Below, piece by piece: positions 7,412 to 60,616 of a stretch of 64,000 nucleotides of DNA (positions are counted from its first letter, which is position 1; each line of letters begins with the position of its first letter). The translations under genes were made by a program, and so were the position numbers. The stretch spans positions 20,243 through 84,242 of the forward strand of contig JACQXK010000004.1 of the NCBI GenBank assembly GCA_016208765.1, read 5' to 3'. The stretch is from Candidatus Omnitrophota bacterium (GTDB lineage: Bacteria; Omnitrophota; Gorgyraeia; Gygaellales; Profunditerraquicolaceae). The notes under the pieces are model-generated. The model ran no database searches. It was not told where the DNA came from and saw nothing but the letters and a program-made list of their open reading frames with translations.

Positions 7412-7556
7412 AAAAAAACCCTATGCCTAAAAACATAGGGGAAACTTGTATCACCTCTCTTCCTACGCTGGCATTACCCAGATCAGGTTATTAGGGTAAT
7501 CTGCTTTACGCAGAACTCTCAGGCCGCTCTACGACCTCCCCTTACAATATTATTCT
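7412..7556 (-). promoter_or_regulatory. TPP riboswitch (THI element) with expression-platform hairpin abutting the pncA start
   Basis: Minus-strand read: GGGGAGGUCGUAGAGCGGCCUGAGAGUUCUGCGUAAAGCAGAUUACCCUAAUAACCUGAUCUGGGUAAUGCCAGCGUAGGAAGAGAGG. It carries the CUGAGA, ACCC and ACCUGAUCUGGnUAAUGCCAGCGUAGGAA hallmarks. It is followed by CCCUAUG-loop-CAUAGGG and U7 directly before the ATG. Confidence 0.9.
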
Positions 7557-7600
7557 ATCCTTAAAATAACTCTTGTCAATTTAAAATACGCGGTGAAATG

Positions 7601-7680
7601 AAGCTTAACAGCAATAAAAGTTTCTATTCGCACACGAGATTTCTTACCGCGTGCTCACAGAAACTTTAATTGCTTTAGGT
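7601..7680 (+). repeat. Dispersed palindromic repeat family R1, copy 1 (short variant)
   Basis: Outer inverted repeat GCAATAAAAGTTTCT...AGAAACTTTAATTGC with the inner GCACACGAGATTTCTT core. Related copies lie at 28361-28454 and 39053-39136. Confidence 0.7.
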
Positions 7681-7709
7681 ATCAGTAAAACCAGCAAGTT
7701 AGGAATTAT

Positions 7710-8720
7710 TCAGAATACACCCGATATATCCGCCTGACAAAAAGAACACTTCCCGTTTATTATATGATTTTCTAAAATATCAAAACCCTCGCGCGCTACC
7801 AGCAATTTCTTGCACTGCGGGCAAAAAGTATCATCCCCTAATCCGGAAACATTTCCGATATAAATATAATTTAATCCTGCATTTCTTCCAAGGTCTCTGG
7901 CAAACAACAAAGTTTTCTCCGGAGTTGATTTATGGCCGCTAAATTTATAATCCGGATGAAAACGCGAAATATGCCAGGGGATATTCTTATCTACACCCGC
8001 GATAAACCCGGCAACACCGCTTAATTCCTGTTCAGAATCATTTTCCCCGGGAATTACCAAAGTAGTCACCTCCACCCAAATCCCTAATTCATGCATCAGG
8101 CGGATTGAATTTAATACAGGCTCAAGGCTTGCAGCGCATATTTCTTTATAAGAGCTATCTTTAAAGAATTTTAGATCTACATTTGCAGCATCTAAATATG
8201 GCCTAAGCATTTCAAGGCACTGGCTGGTCATATAGCCGTTAGTAACAAAAATGTTCTTCAAGCCTTTTTCTTTGGCAATTTTTGCAATGTTTAAAGCGTA
8301 CTCAAAGAATATTGTCGGCTCGGTATAAGTATAAGAAATACTTTTACAGTTGTTCTCTAGCGCAAGCCTAACCACGTCTTCCGGAGTGAGTTTCTCCCCG
8401 TAATTAAATAAACCCTCCCTTGCCGAAGCCTGAGAGATCTCCCAATTCTGGCAGAAAGAACAACGAAAATTGCAACCAATAGCAGCTATGGAAAAACTGG
8501 ATGACCCAGGAAGAAAATGATACAACGGCTTCTTTTCAACAGGATCCACGTGCGCAGAAACAACCTCGCCATAAACATGGGTATAAAGCGTTCCTTGAAT
8601 ATTCTGCCTTACACCGCAAAAACCAAATTTGCCCTCGGAGATTCTGCAATTATGATTGCAAAGATAACAATGCGTTAAATTATTTGCTAATTTTTTATAA
8701 AGCAGGGCTTCTTTGCGCAT
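7710..8720 (-). CDS. Radical SAM enzyme of the AmmeMemoRadiSam-system type (PflA-like)
   Basis: N-terminal Cys cluster CYLCNHNCRISEGKFGFCGVR, DPVEKKPLYHFLPGS and the CNFRCSFCQN CxxxCxxC motif. Confidence 0.6.
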   Translation of the reverse strand: MRKEALLYKKLANNLTHCYLCNHNCRISEGKFGFCGVRQNIQGTLYTHVYGEVVSAHVDPVEKKPLYHFLPGSSSFSIAAIGCNFRCSFCQNWEISQASAREGLFNYGEKLTPEDVVRLALENNCKSISYTYTEPTIFFEYALNIAKIAKEKGLKNIFVTNGYMTSQCLEMLRPYLDAANVDLKFFKDSSYKEICAASLEPVLNSIRLMHELGIWVEVTTLVIPGENDSEQELSGVAGFIAGVDKNIPWHISRFHPDYKFSGHKSTPEKTLLFARDLGRNAGLNYIYIGNVSGLGDDTFCPQCKKLLVAREGFDILENHIINGKCSFCQADISGVF

Positions 8721-12545: not shown

Positions 12546-13301
12546 TTAATATTTGAAGTAATTTACCGGTGTCGCCTGAGAAACATAACGCACCGCTTCA
12601 ACAATACAAATACGGATTGCTTTCTCCATCGGAGTATTAGCATAACCGCCTAAACCATCCCCCAGGACACCTCCGCCAAACAAACCAATCCCCGCCATAC
12701 CGCTGATATCCGAAGCCTGCCCCTGCACGCTGGTAGCAGACAATACCTCTGAAGTAGATGCATCTACAATACGAATATCCATAGCCATATGCGCCTTATT
12801 CGTTGAACCACCCAAAAGCCCGCCTAAAGCACCACTTCCAGACCCGCCTCCACCGCCAATGCCAGCAGTTCCTCCCGACGCTTCAGGCTCAAATTCAGTA
12901 ACTGCCACAGTAATAATTAAATCAGTGGCTTTAAGATTTTCTTTTTCAGCTCCTACTGCTGTCTGTTGGCTTCCTGCAGGGCCGGCTGATTCCTGTTCCT
13001 TCATTGCTTCTGCCAAAGCCTGACGCTCAAGTACTGAAAACCGGTTACTGTTTGATAAAGCAGCGACCAACATTTCACGTAAACCCGTGCCAATCTGGCT
13101 GCTTGCCTTGGCTGCCTTTACATCAAAATCTGCAACCGCCACTCTCGCCATTGGCCCGCTATACGCAGGTAAGGGTTGAGTAGCAACACTGTTAACCACC
13201 TGCCTTTTTTGATGAAACACGGAATTTAAAGACGCGCAACCGGAAAATATAGCAGCACAACCACCTAATAACCCAATAACATACAATGTTTTTCTTAACA
13301 T
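12546..13301 (-). CDS. CsgG/LpoB-like lipoprotein with a Gly-rich insert
   Basis: Lipobox LLGGCAAIFSGC. The VAVADFD...GLREMLVAALSNSNRFSVLERQAL pattern matches the CsgG family. Confidence 0.45.
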   Translation of the reverse strand: MLRKTLYVIGLLGGCAAIFSGCASLNSVFHQKRQVVNSVATQPLPAYSGPMARVAVADFDVKAAKASSQIGTGLREMLVAALSNSNRFSVLERQALAEAMKEQESAGPAGSQQTAVGAEKENLKATDLIITVAVTEFEPEASGGTAGIGGGGGSGSGALGGLLGGSTNKAHMAMDIRIVDASTSEVLSATSVQGQASDISGMAGIGLFGGGVLGDGLGGYANTPMEKAIRICIVEAVRYVSQATPVNYFKY

Positions 13302-13389
13302 CTTGATTTACTCCATTGCTTTCTCAATGAAATTATAGCAAAGAATACCTGAATAGCAATGATAAAGTCTGGATAGCCGTAGCCGGTTA

Positions 13390-13505
13390 GTTACTGGGCG
13401 TAAGTCATTCCCGCGTAAGCGGGAATCCAGCCACGGGAACGCCTGGTTGCCTCCCCGCGAAAGCGGGGATTTCGCGAGCATGACAATACCTATCCCCCGT
13501 TTACT
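13390..13505 (+). repeat. Structured GC-rich repeat family R2, copy A (three hairpins closed by GUCAU/AUGAC)
   Basis: GTCATTCCCGCGTAAGCGGGAATCCAGCCACGGGAACGCCTGGTTGCC is 46/48 identical to the reverse complement of 51790-51838. The third hairpin co-varies between copies (CCCCGCGAAAGCGGGG versus GCCTGCATTTGCGGGC). Confidence 0.75.
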
Positions 13506-13524
13506 GACCGATTACAATTAACCA

Positions 13525-15294
13525 CTATAGAGGAATAGTAAAATAAAAAGTTGAACCCTTTCCATATTCTGATTCAACCCAAATTCTACCTTTATGTTCA
13601 TCAATAATTTTCTTACTAATCGCCAGCCCTAACCCTGTGCCGCCGGTTTTACGGTCCATGCCCTTTTTTATCTGTTCAAATTGATGGAACAGTTTGCTCA
13701 TATCTTCCTGCCTGATCCCTTCGCCGGTATCCTGCACAGAAACCTGAAAACAATCATTCATTTTCCGGCTTTTAACAACAACGCTTCCTTTTACAGTAAA
13801 TCTGATTGCATTGCTGATTAAATGCGACAGAACTTCAAACAAACCTTCCTTATCAAATTTGGCCCTGGCCAGGCCTTCTTCAAGATCCAATATAAAGTCT
13901 ATTTTCTTCTCCCGCACCAATCCAGAGATTTCCTGGACAACTTCTTTTATCAACGCATTAAGATCATTTTCTTCAAATTTATACGACATTCTGCCGGAAT
14001 CCATTCTCTGAAAAACCAAAAGGCTATTCACCAGTTTCAACAGCCTGTCCAAATTCTTCTGTGTTAATTTCAGGATCCCTTCCTGTTTTTGATTAATGCT
14101 CCCGATAGAACTTTCCAGCAACAAAGAAACACCTTCTTTTGCAACAGCAAGCGGAGTTTTTAATTCATGTGAAACAGCGCTTAAGAATTCTTTTTTGACT
14201 GTTAACGCCTCATCAAGCTGGATCCGCATTTTTGCATCAGCCAATTCCTGGTTTCGCTGGGCTAATCTCACATTTAGTTCCCTGACAATCTGCTCCTTTT
14301 GGTAACGCTCTATGGAAATACGTAATATTAAATAAACAAACGCAAAACTTAAAACTATCAACAGTAAATAAATGATAAAAATAATTAGTAATTTTCTGTT
14401 ACGCTGGCTGAAAGCATATTTAACAGGCTGAGCAACAACCACGCCCCAGCCATAGTCAGAAACCGGCGCATAAGCCTCCAGCCTTTTTTCTTTTTCAGCA
14501 GGATTATAAAATATACCGACCCCGGATTTACCTTTTAAAACCTCTTTTGTTGAACCAGACATTGAGAAATCAACAATCTCTCCTTGGACAGGAAATGAGG
14601 GGTGAAAAATAATCCGGCCTTTTCTATCCACGACATAAACAAGGGACTGCGGCCCGATATCCACTTCCTTAACCCACTCAAAAAATGTTTCAGGTAATAC
14701 TTGCAGGACCAATAATCCTAAGACATTCTCTAAACTAGCAGGCCCCTGAGATTTAATAGGAATAGCAATAGCAATAATATTTCTCTCCGGGACAATTGCC
14801 CTTTTATAAATCTCAGAAACATAAGGCTTGCGATTGTTAATCGCACCCTTGTACCAATCCCGGAAAGAAAAATTCTTCCCTGTAATCTCTGATGTCTGGG
14901 GTAAATCAGCCATAAAATTACCCTTTGCGTCAGATAAAAATATGTGATCTATAAAAGAAAAAAGCTTCGGGGCATTTTCTAAAACCAGCATGCCTTCTTG
15001 CCATTTACCCGCGCTTACATTCTCTACTAATCTTGGGCGAGTGGCCAAAACTTCCCCGATAACAACCAACTTATCAAGTTTTTCCTTTAAGATTGTTGCG
15101 GATAGGTATGCAGTAGATTTTTTTTCCTGAAACAAATGAAAGGTATCTGCCTGAAAGACCCAACAGAAACTAAAAATGCTTAAAATAACAATTGGAGTAA
15201 TTACAAGCAAGAAAATACATGCTTGCCAGAGCCATTTTCTCTTTTTTGTTTCTTCTAACAATTTCCCAAGATAACTGATGATTTTCTGAAACAT
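13525..15294 (-). CDS. Sensor histidine kinase with a periplasmic Cache-like domain
   Basis: N-terminal TM segment, an extracytoplasmic domain and a second TM segment. H-box FLSAVSHELKTPL and HATPase N/G boxes (GGTGLGLAISKKI). Confidence 0.8.
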   Translation of the reverse strand: MFQKIISYLGKLLEETKKRKWLWQACIFLLVITPIVILSIFSFCWVFQADTFHLFQEKKSTAYLSATILKEKLDKLVVIGEVLATRPRLVENVSAGKWQEGMLVLENAPKLFSFIDHIFLSDAKGNFMADLPQTSEITGKNFSFRDWYKGAINNRKPYVSEIYKRAIVPERNIIAIAIPIKSQGPASLENVLGLLVLQVLPETFFEWVKEVDIGPQSLVYVVDRKGRIIFHPSFPVQGEIVDFSMSGSTKEVLKGKSGVGIFYNPAEKEKRLEAYAPVSDYGWGVVVAQPVKYAFSQRNRKLLIIFIIYLLLIVLSFAFVYLILRISIERYQKEQIVRELNVRLAQRNQELADAKMRIQLDEALTVKKEFLSAVSHELKTPLAVAKEGVSLLLESSIGSINQKQEGILKLTQKNLDRLLKLVNSLLVFQRMDSGRMSYKFEENDLNALIKEVVQEISGLVREKKIDFILDLEEGLARAKFDKEGLFEVLSHLISNAIRFTVKGSVVVKSRKMNDCFQVSVQDTGEGIRQEDMSKLFHQFEQIKKGMDRKTGGTGLGLAISKKIIDEHKGRIWVESEYGKGSTFYFTIPL

Positions 15295-28248: not shown

Positions 28249-28360
28249 AAGCGGTTTATTGGTAATCAGAGTAGAATTTTTCTTACTTCATCATATTTCA
28301 AAATCATTATAATAAAAGGGGTTGTGGTTGTAAAGACAAATAAAGCTTAATAATATATGG

Positions 28361-28454
28361 AGCTTATCAACAATAAAAGCTTCTGTTCACGCACGAGATT
28401 TCTTGCCGTTGCCAGAAAAATCTCTAATTGTGAGCTCACAGAAACTTTTATTGC
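28361..28454 (+). repeat. Dispersed palindromic repeat family R1, copy 2
   Basis: CAATAAAAGCTTCTG...CAGAAACTTTTATTG outer stem enclosing GAGATTT-TTGCCGTTGCCAG-AAATCTC. Confidence 0.7.
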
Positions 28455-28482
28455 TTTATAAATATAATTTTGAAAATAAGAT

Positions 28483-38883: not shown

Positions 38884-39040
38884 GGTGACAAGGCATATTT
38901 CTCGCAGCACCGCTTGATTTCTCCCTGCGTGGAAAATCTTCGCTCGGGCGAAAGCTCTTGCTCTCGCCAACTATGCAATAGCGGGCGAACCATGCCCGCA
39001 AGAGCTTTCTAACGTGCTGCTTAAAACATGCCTTGTCACC
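38884..39040 (-). repeat. Structured GC-rich element family R3, copy a (candidate ncRNA or MITE)
   Basis: Its reverse complement shares GCAGCACGTTAGAAAGCTCTTGCGGGCATGGTT, AGAGCAAGAGCTTTCGCCCGAGCG and GGTGCTGCGAGAA with 60462-60616. Nested stems GGTGACAAGGCAT/ATGCCTTGTCACC, GCAGCAC/GTGCTGC and GAAAGCTCTTGC/GCAAGAGCTTTC. Confidence 0.7.
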
Positions 39041-39052
39041 AAATTATCTAAA

Positions 39053-39136
39053 GCAACAAAAGTTTCTGTGAGCACACAATCAGAGATTTCTTGGCAACGG
39101 CAAAAAATCTCGCGTGCGAACAGAAACTTTTATTGC
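39053..39136 (-). repeat. Dispersed palindromic repeat family R1, copy 3 (interior inverted relative to copy 2)
   Basis: GCAACAAAAGTTTCTG...CAGAAACTTTTATTGC enclosing GAGATTTCTTGGCAACGGCAAAAAATCTC. The interior is the reverse complement of the copy-2 interior. Confidence 0.7.
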
Positions 39137-39248
39137 TGGATTGTTTTGTGCTGTCAGCAAAAATAGAGAAATATAAATTACCAAATTAAAAACCCAAGCT
39201 GCAAAAACAACTTGGGTTTTTAAGGTTGCATATATTAAACTAACGCGT

Positions 39249-51469: not shown

Positions 51470-51703
51470 TTATTGCAGTTTTCCCGAAAACATAAAAACT
51501 ACAACCAAGGCATATATGGTCAATGCTTCAATAAAAGCACAACCAACTGCCATGGTAATCAGGATCTTTCCCGAAGCTTCAGGTTGCCTGCCGGTAGCTT
51601 CCATTGCGGCGGCCACAGCCTTTCCCAATCCTATCCCCGAACCTAACGCAGCAATTCCCACTCCTATGGGAAGTGCAAATGCCAATGCTGTTCTTAAATC
51701 CAT
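51470..51703 (-). CDS. atpE: F-type ATP synthase subunit c
   Basis: Helix hairpin with GxGxGxG ([15 protein letters not shown]) and the conserved carboxylate E in AFIEAL. Confidence 0.9.
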
Positions 51704-51737
51704 AGTTTCCTCCTTGTTTAAGAATTACTTAACCGGA

Positions 51738-51838
51738 CTAAATGGGGGAGAATAGCGTCATGCCCGCAAATGCAGGCATCCAGGCGTTCCCATGGCTGGA
51801 TTCCCGCTTACGCGGGAATGACAATTTCTCCCATTGAC
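51738..51838 (-). repeat. Structured GC-rich repeat family R2, copy B (in the atpB-atpE intergenic region)
   Basis: The reverse complement reads GTCATTCCCGCGTAAGCGGGAATCCAGCCATGGGAACGCCTGGATGCCTGCATTTGCGGGCATGAC... This matches 13404-13504 and has a co-varying third hairpin. Confidence 0.75.
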
Positions 51839-51853
51839 TAACACATTACAGAA

Positions 51854-52651
51854 TTACTCCTCGTGTTTTAAAAATAAAGCAAAATATATTGTGCTTAACA
51901 AACTAAAAACAACTGCCTGCACTACTGCGGATATAATAACTATACAACTGGAAAATAGCAACAACCCCACTCCCTTTATGCCAAAACCGGCAATAGCCGC
52001 GAGCAGCATGTCGTCGGCAAAAATATTGCTTCTTAAACGAAGTGACAAACTAATCGGTTTGATTAATTCAGAAATAATATGAATAAAGAGCATAAACACA
52101 GGGAGAATTATTGTAAAAGCCAGTGCCCCCCGCGGTTTTCCCATAAGATGGTCAAAATAACCAAATAAACCTAATTCGCGGATTGCCAGATAATGTACGT
52201 AAATAAATACACAAAGAGCCAGGCCAAAGGTTGTAGACAAATTTGAAGTCGCTGATTTCATGAATGGGATCAGTCCAAAGAAATTCATGAAAAGTATGTA
52301 AATAAAAAGTGTTCCTATAAAAGGGGTCAGGCTTCTTCCTTTGGGCCCCAAGATACCGCAGACAAAATCATCTAATGACGCGGCGAGGAACTCCGCAGCT
52401 GCCTGCAGCCTGCCGGGTGTAATCTTTGGCCTGCGAAATGAGAAATAAGCAACAATAGAAAGAACGAAAACAATTATTAAAGAAAAAATTACTGTTTCCC
52501 ACCTGTGGAGAAACTTCCCCAACGCCGAGGACTCTCCTATGTGATTTACGATAATTTCAATAAAATTAGGAAATTCTAATTGCCTGGAGCTCTCTTTAAC
52601 CATTGACTTAAGGGTTATTGCGCCCTGATTTTCCTTCAACGCGCAAAGCAA
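51854..52651 (-). CDS. atpB: F-type ATP synthase subunit a
   Basis: Polytopic protein. The LSLRLRSNIFADDM segment carries the essential Arg of subunit a. Confidence 0.85.
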   Translation of the reverse strand: MLCALKENQGAITLKSMVKESSRQLEFPNFIEIIVNHIGESSALGKFLHRWETVIFSLIIVFVLSIVAYFSFRRPKITPGRLQAAAEFLAASLDDFVCGILGPKGRSLTPFIGTLFIYILFMNFFGLIPFMKSATSNLSTTFGLALCVFIYVHYLAIRELGLFGYFDHLMGKPRGALAFTIILPVFMLFIHIISELIKPISLSLRLRSNIFADDMLLAAIAGFGIKGVGLLLFSSCIVIISAVVQAVVFSLLSTIYFALFLKHEE

Positions 52652-60461: not shown

Positions 60462-60616
60462 GGGTGGCTTGGCTTGATTCGAGCAGCACGTTAGAAAACT
60501 CTTGCGGGCATGGTTTTCCCGACTGAAAGTCGGGAAAGAGCACGAGTTTTCGCCCGAGTGCAGCCCCGACACGCCGGGGCGGGACAAACGGTGCTGCGAG
60601 AACAAGACAAGACAGG
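60462..60616 (+). repeat. Structured GC-rich element family R3, copy b
   Basis: GCAGCACGTTAGAAAACTCTTGCGGGCATGGTT-(hairpin TTCCCGACTGAAAGTCGGGAA)-AGAGCACGAGTTTTCGCCCGAGTG-(hairpin GCCCCGACACGCCGGGGC)-GGTGCTGCGAGAA. Shows G-C to A-T covariation relative to copy a. Confidence 0.7.

What the first reader, a model, noticed from the sequence alone, without database searches (positions are those of the whole stretch)
13390..13505. R2: ~100-nt triple-hairpin element closed by GUCAU/AUGAC, in two copies (13390-13505 and 51738-51838, opposite orientation). One copy sits in the atpB-atpE spacer
Seen: the 48-nt core GTCATTCCCGCGTAAGCGGGAATCCAGCCAYGGGAACGCCTGGWTGCC is 46/48 identical between copies. It contains an 8-bp hairpin capped by a GNRA-type GUAA loop. 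The next hairpin is CUCCCCGC-GAAA-GCGGGGAU in copy A and AUGCCUGC-AUUU-GCGGGCAU in copy B. That is full compensatory replacement keeping an 8-bp stem. Both copies are then closed by ...CAUGAC pairing with the 5' GUCAU, and end in CYWTCCCCCRTTTA. Copy B lies 35 nt upstream of the atpE start codon. In E. coli the atpB-atpE spacer is a known site of translational/mRNA-stability control for the high-stoichiometry c subunit. Copy A lies in the 5' region of the csgG-like gene. Inference: a conserved structured RNA module (mRNA stabiliser, processing site or small mobile element) that works in either orientation.
Basis: partly seen in the sequence, partly recalled or inferred. Interest (0 to 1): 0.65.

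Follow-up and report, generated by a model that had tools for sequence, protein, structure and literature searches.

The report
Mobile REP-type hairpin-pair DNA repeat
The two "triple-hairpin" copies are a small selfish DNA repeat built from a hairpin already known across bacteria (REP/dRS3/NTS type). One copy inserted recently between two ATP-synthase genes, so it is not a conserved RNA control element of that operon.

Summary
The repeat is real: 47 of 49 core bases are identical between the two copies, which lie in opposite orientation.

Hairpin 1, (A/T)GTCATTCCCGCGTAAGCGGGAATCCAG, fits the published Ssn-related motif (SRM) exactly. It has every feature of a CGTC-1 REP, the family that includes Neisseria dRS3/NTS. 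The same 27-mer occurs in many phyla.

Each copy is an inverted, tags-outward pair of such hairpins inside a longer imperfect palindrome of 120 nt (copy B) or 136 nt (copy A).

The atpB-atpE spacer is 150 nt here. It is 18, 24 and 14 nt in the three closest relatives with a gene map. An alignment with the 88%-identical relative shows a clean 120-nt insert flanked by a 9-bp direct repeat, AGTAATTCT.

All four flanking genes are on the minus strand. Copy B is therefore sense and copy A antisense to transcription.

The "compensatory" third hairpin of copy A is a 15-nt indel, an extra hairpin unit, and not paired substitutions.

No Rfam family reaches threshold, and there is no terminator-like site at either copy.

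Verdict: a new member, in Omnitrophota, of a known repeat family. Any effect on atp mRNA would be a by-product. The 9-bp duplication is the one mildly new detail.

The parts
13379..13514 (+). Copy A, full element (136 nt): an imperfect palindrome with outer inverted arms around a pair of hairpin units. It lies between the histidine-kinase stop (13525) and the csgG-like start (13301), antisense to both genes.
   Evidence: Alignments A1 and A5; boundaries and self-complementarity; terminal arms; ssDNA fold z -2.4 and -3.1.
13403..13430 (+). Copy A, forward SRM / CGTC-1 REP unit AGTCATTCCCGCGTAAGCGGGAATCCAG. It has a GTC tag, the 8-bp stem ATTCCCGC, the 4-nt loop GTAA and a CCA tail.
   Evidence: Exact match to the published SRM degenerate motif (motif from PMC11893778). 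CGTC-1 features from PMC3733652.
13427..13446 (+). It is formed by the CCAG tails of the two inverted units plus 8-10 nt.
   Evidence: The module is specific to this composite: it is absent from the 239 other loci then held.
13451..13470 (+). Copy A, extra hairpin unit CTCCCCGCGAAAGCGGGGAT. It corresponds to a 15-nt insertion relative to copy B and L241. It resembles the ATCCCCGCG...GGGGAT unit variant seen in another Omnitrophota MAG (L189).
   Evidence: 3-mismatch hit to the hairpin pattern; indel in alignment A5; L189.
13470..13484 (+). Copy A, remnant 3' half of the reverse (right-hand) unit, TTTCGCGAGCATGAC.
   Evidence: Aligns to TTTCGCGGGCATGAC of L241 and TTTGCGGGCATGAC of copy B.
13380..13400 (+). 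Copy A, left terminal arm TAGCCGGTTAGTTACTGGGCG. It is an inverted repeat of the right arm at 13494-13514.
   Evidence: 3 hits against 0.01 expected, all at element ends.
13494..13514 (-). Copy A, right terminal arm (read on the minus strand: TAATCGGTCAGTAAACGGGGG).
51730..51849 (-). Copy B, full element (120 nt), inserted in the atpB-atpE spacer. The forward unit is on the sense strand of the atp mRNA.
   Evidence: Filled-site versus empty-site alignment A2; coordinates; folds z -3.1 to -4.6.
51796..51823 (-). Copy B, forward SRM / CGTC-1 unit TGTCATTCCCGCGTAAGCGGGAATCCAG.
   Evidence: Exact SRM motif match.
51756..51783 (+). Copy B, reverse unit CGTCATGCCCGCAAATGCAGGCATCCAG, slightly decayed. 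One base (G to A) keeps it from matching the SRM motif. Its intact counterpart in L241, TGTCATGCCCGCGAAAGCGGGCATCCAG, matches.
   Evidence: Sequence; SRM scan of L241; hand comparison with the motif.
51850..51858 (-). Upstream copy of the 9-bp direct repeat AGTAATTCT (minus-strand reading). It overlaps the atpB stop codon.
51721..51729 (-). Downstream copy of the 9-bp direct repeat AGTAATTCT. It is followed by 17 nt, TAAACAAGGAGGAAACT, that carry the intact atpE Shine-Dalgarno sequence, and then the ATG.

Best explanation
The element is a non-autonomous, DNA-level repeat: an inverted pair of CGTC-tagged REP hairpins with the tags facing outward (a 'head-head' dimer). This hairpin family is known as dRS3/NTS in Neisseria and as the Ssn-related motif (SRM) elsewhere. 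The pair sits inside a 120-136-nt imperfect palindrome.

Shown:
- It belongs to that family by sequence and architecture.
- It was inserted into the atpB-atpE spacer after this lineage split from its 88%-identical relative.
- The insertion duplicated, or is bounded by, 9 bp of target.

Inferred:
- The hairpins work as single-stranded DNA structures, exposed for example during replication, and are recognised by a cognate enzyme.
- The most likely enzyme is an Ssn-type single-domain GIY-YIG ssDNA nuclease. Its genes are themselves flanked by inverted SRMs of the same polarity, so this element looks like an 'NTS-ssn-NTS' unit without the gene. A RAYT-type tyrosine transposase is the alternative.
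- The unit spreads within the genome as a REPIN or MITE does.
- When transcribed, either orientation gives a stable RNA stem-loop of about -46 kcal/mol. In the atp mRNA this could act as a 3'-exonuclease barrier or an RNase III site. That would be a side effect of the insertion and not its reason for being there.
For: - Both forward units match the published SRM motif HGTCWYN(0-2)YYVSBRHN(0-5)WNVSBRGN(0-2)RNCYNB exactly: 2 hits in the window against 0.1 in shuffles (motif from PMC11893778).
- The units have all the CGTC-1 REP features of PMC3733652: a CGTC tag (often TGTC), an 8-bp stem starting with AT, a 4-nt loop, a CCA tail, and mostly head-head dimers.
- The 27-mer, with any loop, is in more than 120 viral contigs. 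With this exact TAA loop it is in more than 119 genome stretches from Chloroflexota, Planctomycetota, Proteobacteria, CPR groups, Omnitrophota and others.
- The inverted-pair architecture is common in the family. In the fetched loci 88 dimers were formed among 518 units. It also shows in spurious ORFs of the form 'VIPAKAGIQ...LDSRLRGND' from Neisseria, Rickettsiaceae and others.
- A third copy of this composite (L241) has two intact SRM units in inverted orientation. Another Omnitrophota MAG (L189) also has a head-head dimer.
- Insertion: the spacer is 150 nt here against 18, 24 and 14 nt in relatives. Alignment A2 shows a 120-nt insert with the 9-bp direct repeat AGTAATTCT and an intact atpE Shine-Dalgarno sequence.
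- No SRM was found in the relatives' loci that were fetched.
- Polarity relative to transcription is opposite in the two copies.
- About 100-aa GIY-YIG genes are tightly flanked by inverted SRMs of the same polarity in L024, L060, L085 and L228.
- Two independent short-read assemblies break inside copy A's hairpin 1, as expected at a repeat.
- No Rfam family reaches threshold and there is no terminator-like site.
Against: - Only two copies are visible in 64 kb, plus one in the metagenome collection for the composite-specific junction. Genome-wide copy number is unknown.
- No GIY-YIG or Y1-transposase gene is in the window. The rest of the genome could not be read.
- Target-site duplications are not expected for HUH (RAYT / IS200-IS605) transposition. 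They were not enriched around dimers from other taxa.
- Copy A shows no flanking duplication.
- The hairpin fits the SRM motif but misses the strict Neisseria NTS consensus by 2 positions, the 5' C and the first loop base.
- Nothing here tests activity on ssDNA or any RNA effect.
Confidence: 0.85

Rival explanations
1. It is a dedicated cis-regulatory RNA of the atp operon, acting as a stabiliser, processing site or translational enhancer that sets the high output of subunit c.
For: Copy B is sense to the atp mRNA. It sits between the atpB stop and the atpE ribosome-binding site, and it folds stably as RNA (-46.4 kcal/mol, z -3.1). In E. coli this spacer is known to influence atpE expression (established knowledge, not tested here).
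Against: - The element is absent from the orthologous spacer in the 88%, 70% and 64% relatives, whose spacers are 18, 24 and 14 nt.
- The second copy is antisense to its neighbours and next to unrelated genes.
- The core hairpin is a pan-bacterial DNA repeat.
- No Rfam match reaches threshold.
- The supposed covariation is an indel.
Confidence: 0.04
2. It is a mobile repeat that has secondarily acquired an RNA-level effect at the atp site. The stem-loop would protect atpB mRNA from 3'-5' decay, or would be cut by RNase III and so uncouple atpB and atpE stability. REP/BIME, ERIC and Correia elements do this in other bacteria.
For: The element forms a stable stem-loop in the polycistronic mRNA. 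The insertion left the atpE Shine-Dalgarno sequence and its spacing intact. PMC3733652 reviews such effects for REPs and MITEs.
Against: There are no expression data. No terminator-like feature is present. Relatives manage with a 14-24-nt spacer, so no such effect is required.
Confidence: 0.25
3. The mobile unit is a conventional MITE, moved by a DDE transposase that recognises the outer terminal inverted repeats (TAAYCGGTYAGT...). The REP/SRM hairpin pair in its centre is only a passenger, or an earlier insertion into a palindrome.
For: A 9-bp direct repeat flanks copy B, which is typical of DDE staggered cuts and not of HUH enzymes. Outer arms are inverted repeats shared by copies A and B. 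REP dimers embedded in longer palindromes are described in PMC3733652.
Against: No transposase gene or other copy of the outer arms is in the window. Copy A has no duplication. The outer arms are poorly conserved in L241 while the hairpin pair is nearly identical, so the hairpin pair looks like the selected part.
Confidence: 0.25
4. The similarity arose by chance, or by local duplication of a GC-rich stem-loop with no family behind it.
For: None beyond the low copy number in the window.
Against: Identity is 47/49, with 0 hits expected by chance. There is a third copy on an unrelated contig. The hairpin is identical across many phyla.
Confidence: 0.01

Closest known systems
CGTC-tagged REPs, family CGTC-1 (Di Nocera, De Gregorio and Rocco 2013, PMC3733652). 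The family includes Neisseria dRS3 and Rickettsia RPE-6.
   Same: - Unpaired (C/T)GTC tag.
- 8-bp stem that begins with AT.
- 4-nt loop and CCA tail.
- Predominantly head-head dimers with the tags outside.
- Heterodimers occur, and the elements are intergenic.
   Different: - The tag is AGTC in copy A and TGTC in copy B.
- The GTAA loop is uncommon: it was absent from 60 hits in viral contigs.
- The host phylum Omnitrophota is not among the 5 phyla listed in 2013.
- The dimer is very compact, with units about 14 nt apart.
- It is embedded in shared outer palindromic arms.
NTS / Ssn-related motif (SRM) with Ssn GIY-YIG ssDNA nucleases (PMC11893778, Nat Commun 2025)
   Same: The forward units match the SRM search motif exactly. 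The polarity of the inverted pair equals that of the SRMs flanking ssn genes.
   Different: - Two mismatches to the strict Neisseria NTS consensus.
- No ssn gene in the window.
- A role in natural transformation is unknown for this organism.
- No cleavage was tested.
REPINs and RAYTs (Bertels and Rainey 2011, PMC3116915; Neisseria REPIN seed ATTCCCGCGCAGGCGGGAATC in bioRxiv 10.1101/2021.07.10.451892)
   Same: Two inverted REP hairpins with a short spacer form one long hairpin. The element is non-autonomous. The Neisseria seed has the same stem as hairpin 1.
   Different: No RAYT gene was seen in the window. REPIN/HUH transposition is not known to duplicate the target, whereas copy B has a 9-bp direct repeat.
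Bacterial MITEs transcribed within operons (Correia/NEMIS, ERIC, RUP) and E. coli REP/BIME in intercistronic spacers
   Same: A palindromic insert of about 100-150 nt between genes of an operon. It folds as RNA in either orientation, and a flanking duplication is present.
   Different: There is no sequence relation. Those elements have TA or other short duplications and known partner transposases or RNase III effects. None of that is shown here.
Rfam RF03015 Transposase-2 RNA motif
   Same: This is the best Rfam hit. It aligns to the 3' half of hairpin 1, the CCAG...CTGG spacer and the extra hairpin of copy A.
   Different: The score is 23.9 bits against a gathering score of 42.7. Copy B scores only 12.2 bits. 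The element is not a member.

Membership tests
SRM / NTS (Ssn-related motif) | Sequence fits the degenerate SRM motif HGTCWYN(0-2)YYVSBRHN(0-5)WNVSBRGN(0-2)RNCYNB | tested here: met
   Both forward units match (13403-13430 +, 51796-51823 -). Shuffles give 0.1 hits. Both units of L241 match. The right-hand unit of copy B misses by one base.
SRM / NTS (Ssn-related motif) | Strict Neisseria NTS consensus CGTCATTCCCGCGMAVGCGGGAATCYRG with at most 1 mismatch | tested here: not met
   There is no exact match. By eye there are 2 mismatches: the 5' C is A or T, and the first loop base M is T. It is an SRM but not a canonical NTS.
SRM / NTS (Ssn-related motif) | A cd10448-type single-domain GIY-YIG (ssn) gene in the genome, typically flanked by the motif | tested here: inconclusive
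   None is in the 64-kb window (tblastn; jackhmmer). The association was reproduced in other loci.
SRM / NTS (Ssn-related motif) | Cleaved by the cognate Ssn enzyme as single-stranded DNA, one strand only | not testable with these tools
   This needs a biochemical assay.
CGTC-1 REP (dRS3 type) | Terminal CGTC/TGTC tag, 8-bp stem with AT at positions 1-2, 4-nt loop, CCA tail | tested here: met
   Read directly from the sequence against the description in PMC3733652. The tag is TGTC in copy B and AGTC in copy A.
CGTC-1 REP (dRS3 type) | dRS3 core ATTCCC-N8-GGGAAT | tested here: met
   ATTCCCGCGTAAGCGGGAAT is present in both copies.
CGTC-1 REP (dRS3 type) | Multi-copy family within the genome (tens to thousands of copies) | tested here: inconclusive
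   Two copies in 64 kb. Two short-read assemblies break inside hairpin 1. A whole-genome count was not possible.
REPIN-RAYT | Two REP units in inverted orientation separated by a short spacer, forming one long hairpin | tested here: met
   Folds of copy B and L241; unit orientation.
REPIN-RAYT | A cognate RAYT (Y1 transposase, PF01797) flanked by the same REPs | tested here: inconclusive
   None is in the window. One Y1_Tnp gene lies next to an SRM in L203, against six GIY-YIG genes in about 240 loci. PMC3733652 reports that CGTC REPs lack an associated transposase.
MITE (DDE-mobilised) | Terminal inverted repeats plus a target-site duplication of fixed length | tested here: inconclusive
   Terminal inverted arms are present. 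A 9-bp direct repeat is present at copy B only and none at copy A. No parent insertion sequence was found.
Conserved cis-regulatory RNA of the atp operon | Presence at the orthologous position in related genomes | tested here: not met
   Spacers of 18, 24 and 14 nt without the element in the 88%, 70% and 64% relatives.
Conserved cis-regulatory RNA of the atp operon | Fixed polarity relative to the transcript, and covariation supporting the fold | tested here: not met
   The polarities are opposite. Hairpins 1 and 2 are invariant among the three copies. The difference in hairpin 3 is an indel plus one one-sided change.

The most novel reading that the evidence does not exclude
The filled site here and the empty site in the 88% relative show that a dimer of CGTC/SRM hairpins moves as a discrete 120-nt unit and duplicates 9 bp of target. 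If that is general, this family transposes by a staggered-cut mechanism and not by HUH 'peel-and-paste'. Its transposase was reported missing in 2013, and only an ssDNA nuclease partner has been found since. The mechanism could be a DDE enzyme acting on the outer arms, or an unexplored pathway that depends on a GIY-YIG (Ssn) nuclease.
Probability: 0.25. Interest if true: 0.5.

Novelty: new member of a known kind. Interest (0 to 1): 0.2.

Why it matters
The main value is corrective. A feature that looks like a structured riboregulator in a well-studied regulatory spacer turns out to be a selfish palindromic repeat, so it should not be annotated or pursued as an atp control element.

Two secondary points follow. 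First, it extends the CGTC-REP / SRM family to Omnitrophota, and the genome scan shows the identical 27-mer in many uncultured phyla, including CPR groups. Second, it gives a clean filled-versus-empty site with a 9-bp duplication. That is a small but concrete clue to how these repeats spread, which is still an open question.

Tried and rejected
- **Rfam.** A gathering-threshold scan of the whole window found only a TPP riboswitch elsewhere. Permissive scans of both copies gave only sub-threshold hits: Transposase-2 at 23.9 bits against 42.7, and FtrB at about 16 bits against 66.
- **Terminator scan.** Nothing at either copy.
- **Cognate enzyme genes in the window.** Searched by tblastn with E. 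coli YhbQ (sequence from memory), by jackhmmer, and with E. coli RayT. None was found.
- **Finding the source genome.** A metagenome scan with the composite-specific junction gave one extra copy only.
- **Searching for spurious ORFs encoded by the composite.** The 57-aa profile returned 1926 repeat-encoded ORFs of the general family but no further copy of this composite.
- **Extending the window.** Look-ups of genes at the window ends and of P0001 were not on record.
- **Orthologous site of copy A.** The closest CsgG relatives are only about 70% identical and have a different upstream gene, so no empty site could be aligned.
- **General test for flanking direct repeats.** 87 of the 88 dimers from other taxa were tested. 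There was no clear enrichment over mismatched flanks.
- **Whether AGTAATTCT is part of the element.** Rejected. It is absent from copy A and from L241, and its other occurrences in the window are unrelated.

Full report
**Observation**

Reading the two regions and aligning them confirms the repeat. The repeat finder reports arms 13404-13452 and 51774-51822, 49 nt long and 96% complementary (I3). These were the only hits to the central module (2 found, 0 expected).

The hairpin pattern ATTCCCGCGNNNGCGGGAAT has 5 hits at up to 3 mismatches, against 0.11 expected. All are inside the two copies, and one of them is the third hairpin of copy A.

Its energy is not unusual for its composition (z -1.8). 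Copy B folds, on either strand, as one long imperfect hairpin (z -3.1 and -4.6). The same holds with DNA parameters. The element is therefore a palindrome made of palindromes, and the cloverleaf and the long hairpin are alternative forms.

**Gene context**

All four flanking genes are on the minus strand:
- histidine kinase, 13525-15294
- csgG-like gene, 12546-13301
- atpB, 51854-52651
- atpE, 51470-51703

The forward hairpin of copy B is on the sense strand of the atp mRNA. That of copy A is antisense to its neighbours. It is also upstream of a promoter-like site for the csgG-like gene (13359-13332, 10/12 with a TG extension). It is thus probably not in that gene's leader. Neither copy has a terminator-like feature.

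**What the hairpin is**

A literature search for the sequence found two papers.

The first is PMC11893778. It defines the Neisseria Transformation Sequence, CGTCATTCCCGCGMAVGCGGGAATCYRG, which contains the classical dRS3 repeat ATTCCC-N8-GGGAAT. It also defines a broader Ssn-related motif (SRM). These hairpins flank genes for small single-domain GIY-YIG nucleases (Ssn). Those enzymes bind and cut the motif only as single-stranded DNA, and only on one strand.

I coded the SRM motif as a regular expression. It matches exactly twice in the window, at the forward hairpin of each copy, against 0.1 matches in dinucleotide shuffles. The strict NTS consensus is missed by two positions.

The second is a preprint (10.1101/2021.07.10.451892). 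It uses ATTCCCGCGCAGGCGGGAATC as the seed of the Neisseria REPIN population linked to a RAYT transposase.

A third paper, PMC3733652, classifies such repeats as CGTC-tagged REPs. Family CGTC-1 has:
- a CGTC tag, often TGTC
- an 8-bp stem beginning with AT
- a 4-nt loop
- a CCA tail
- mostly 'head-head' dimers, with the tags outside

It equals dRS3 in Neisseria and RPE-6 in Rickettsia. The paper also reports that no transposase is associated with the family. Hairpin 1 here has every one of these features.

**Distribution**

Among 60 of those hits the loop was never TAA.

The genomes include Dehalococcoidia, Planctomycetota, Alpha-, Beta- and Gammaproteobacteria, Myxococcota, Nitrospinota, Nitrospirae, Acidobacteriota, Gemmatimonadales, Poribacteria, Aminicenantes, Binatia, Omnitrophota and four CPR groups.

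In the fetched loci I found six GIY-YIG ORFs and one Y1-transposase ORF. Four of the GIY-YIG genes are tightly bracketed by inverted SRMs. One example is L060, with an SRM(+) at 7786-7812, the gene at 7823-8134 and an SRM(-) at 8138-8164. Pfam confirms the domains for the three GIY-YIG genes and the one Y1-transposase gene submitted. The polarity of those brackets, with GTCAT outward, is the polarity of the pair in the window. The element therefore looks like such a unit without its gene.

**Architecture of the composite**

A metagenome scan for the junction of hairpin 1 and the central module found one further copy (L241). Its sequence is GTCATTCCCGCGTAAGCGGGAATCCAGCCACGGGAACGCCTGGATGCCCGCTTTCGCGGGCATGAC. 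Its right half, read on the other strand, is itself an intact SRM.

- Hairpin 1 is the forward unit.
- 'Hairpin 2' is formed by the two CCAG tails plus a short spacer.
- 'Hairpin 3' is the reverse unit, a stem variant (ATGCCCGC) in which the third pair changed on both sides.

Copy B's reverse unit differs from L241's by one stem base and by its loop. Copy A carries a 15-nt insertion there, which is an extra hairpin unit. It resembles a unit variant seen in another Omnitrophota MAG (L189), and the 3' half of the original unit is still in place. So the 'full compensatory replacement' is an indel.

Inverted pairs are common in the family. Among 518 units in the fetched loci, 88 dimers were formed. 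The pairs also appear in database ORFs of the form VIPAKAGIQ...LDSRLRGND from Neisseria, Rickettsiaceae, Xanthomonadaceae and others.

Homology between copies A and B extends about 25-30 nt beyond GTCAT and ATGAC on each side. These outer arms are themselves inverted repeats (TAAYCGGTYAGT...) and are found only at the element ends.

**Insertion**

AtpB homologues identify the organism as a Candidatus Omnitrophica/Omnitrophota MAG. The atpB-atpE spacers compare as follows:

| Genome | AtpB identity | atpB-atpE spacer |
|---|---|---|
| This window | - | 150 nt |
| GCA_016214325.1 | 88% | 18 nt |
| Second relative | 70% | 24 nt |
| Third relative | 64% | 14 nt |

Aligning the window with the 88% relative gives an empty site, CACGAGGA TAATTAAC ACACAAGGAGG. 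The filled site is CACGAGG AGTAATTCT [120 nt] AGTAATTCT TAAACAAGGAGG. The 9-mer copies lie at 51850-51858 and 51721-51729, and the element lies at 51730-51849.

The 9-mer is not part of the element. It is absent from copy A and from L241, and its other occurrences in the window are unrelated. The atpE ribosome-binding site is untouched.

The relatives' loci that I fetched contain no SRM.

Copy A has no visible duplication. It sits at a break in synteny: in relatives csgG is preceded by a 189-192-aa gene that is missing from the window.

Two independent short-read assemblies end exactly inside copy A's hairpin 1. That is the usual sign of a sequence repeated in the sample.

**Mechanism**

Shown: family membership by sequence and architecture, recent insertion, and a flanking 9-bp direct repeat.

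Inferred from the cited work: the hairpins act as single-stranded DNA structures recognised by an Ssn-type nuclease or a RAYT. The dimer would propagate as a gene-less derivative of an enzyme gene bracketed by the same hairpins.

The 9-bp duplication does not fit HUH transposition and was not enriched around dimers from other taxa. A conventional transposase acting on the outer arms therefore remains a real alternative.

Any stabilising or processing effect on atp mRNA is plausible by analogy with REP, ERIC and Correia elements. It was not tested, and it is not needed in relatives.

**Limits**

The window holds neither candidate enzyme gene. The rest of the source genome could not be read. The genome-wide copy number is unknown.

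**Verdict**

This is a known kind of repeat in a new host. It is of low interest as a regulatory RNA. The target duplication is a modest lead.

Noticed in passing
window 7598-7681, 28357-28458, 39045-39140; also 38899-39040 versus 60463-60602: A second, unrelated repeat family. The segments of 40-66 nt are 73-93% identical in direct and inverted orientation, and appear mostly intergenic (D2, D7, I1, I2, I4-I7).
   Followed up: partly
window 7443-7552 (-): TPP riboswitch, 68.1 bits, above the Rfam gathering score.
   Followed up: no
window 13302-13524; L245 1632-2201; L247 2921-3499: In relatives csgG is preceded by, and directly abuts, a 189-192-aa gene. That gene has no homologue in the window, where a histidine-kinase gene and copy A take its place. 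Copy A therefore sits at a synteny break.
   Followed up: partly
L250 1-30 and L251 1-30 (window about 13400-13429): Two independent Logan assemblies (SRR12113402 and SRR12113406) both end at exactly the same base inside hairpin 1 of copy A. This suggests the hairpin is repeated in those samples.
   Followed up: partly
L122-L124, L127, L139, L145, L147, L162, L168, L175, L200 (Dehalococcoidia MAG CBDBCU01): One MAG carries at least 15 copies of the identical TAA-loop hairpin, nearly all as head-head dimers with a spacer of about 44 nt. The immediate flanks are inverted repeats that differ from copy to copy (for example ...ccccctacc / ggtaggggg...). Arrays of partial units extend on both sides as long nested palindromes.
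   Followed up: no
Loci L122-L201 (genome scan): The exact 27-mer, including its loop, is shared by more than a dozen phyla, including CPR lineages (Staskawiczbacteria, Paceibacterota, Kuenenbacteria, Saccharibacteria) and Omnitrophota.
   Followed up: partly
window 13416-13474 (+): There is a sub-threshold match to Rfam RF03015 'Transposase-2 RNA' (23.9 bits, gathering score 42.7). The consensus begins GAAGCGcGAAcCagGC...CcuGg. This suggests the Rfam motif may itself be built on a related REP-type dimer.
   Followed up: partly
L024 936-1305, L060 7786-8164, L085 3005-3377, L228 2773-3269; L203 3059-3486: GIY-YIG genes of about 100 aa are bracketed within about 65 nt, often within tens of nt, by inverted SRM hairpins, an arrangement that resembles an insertion sequence. 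Only one Y1 transposase lies next to an SRM among about 240 loci.
   Followed up: yes
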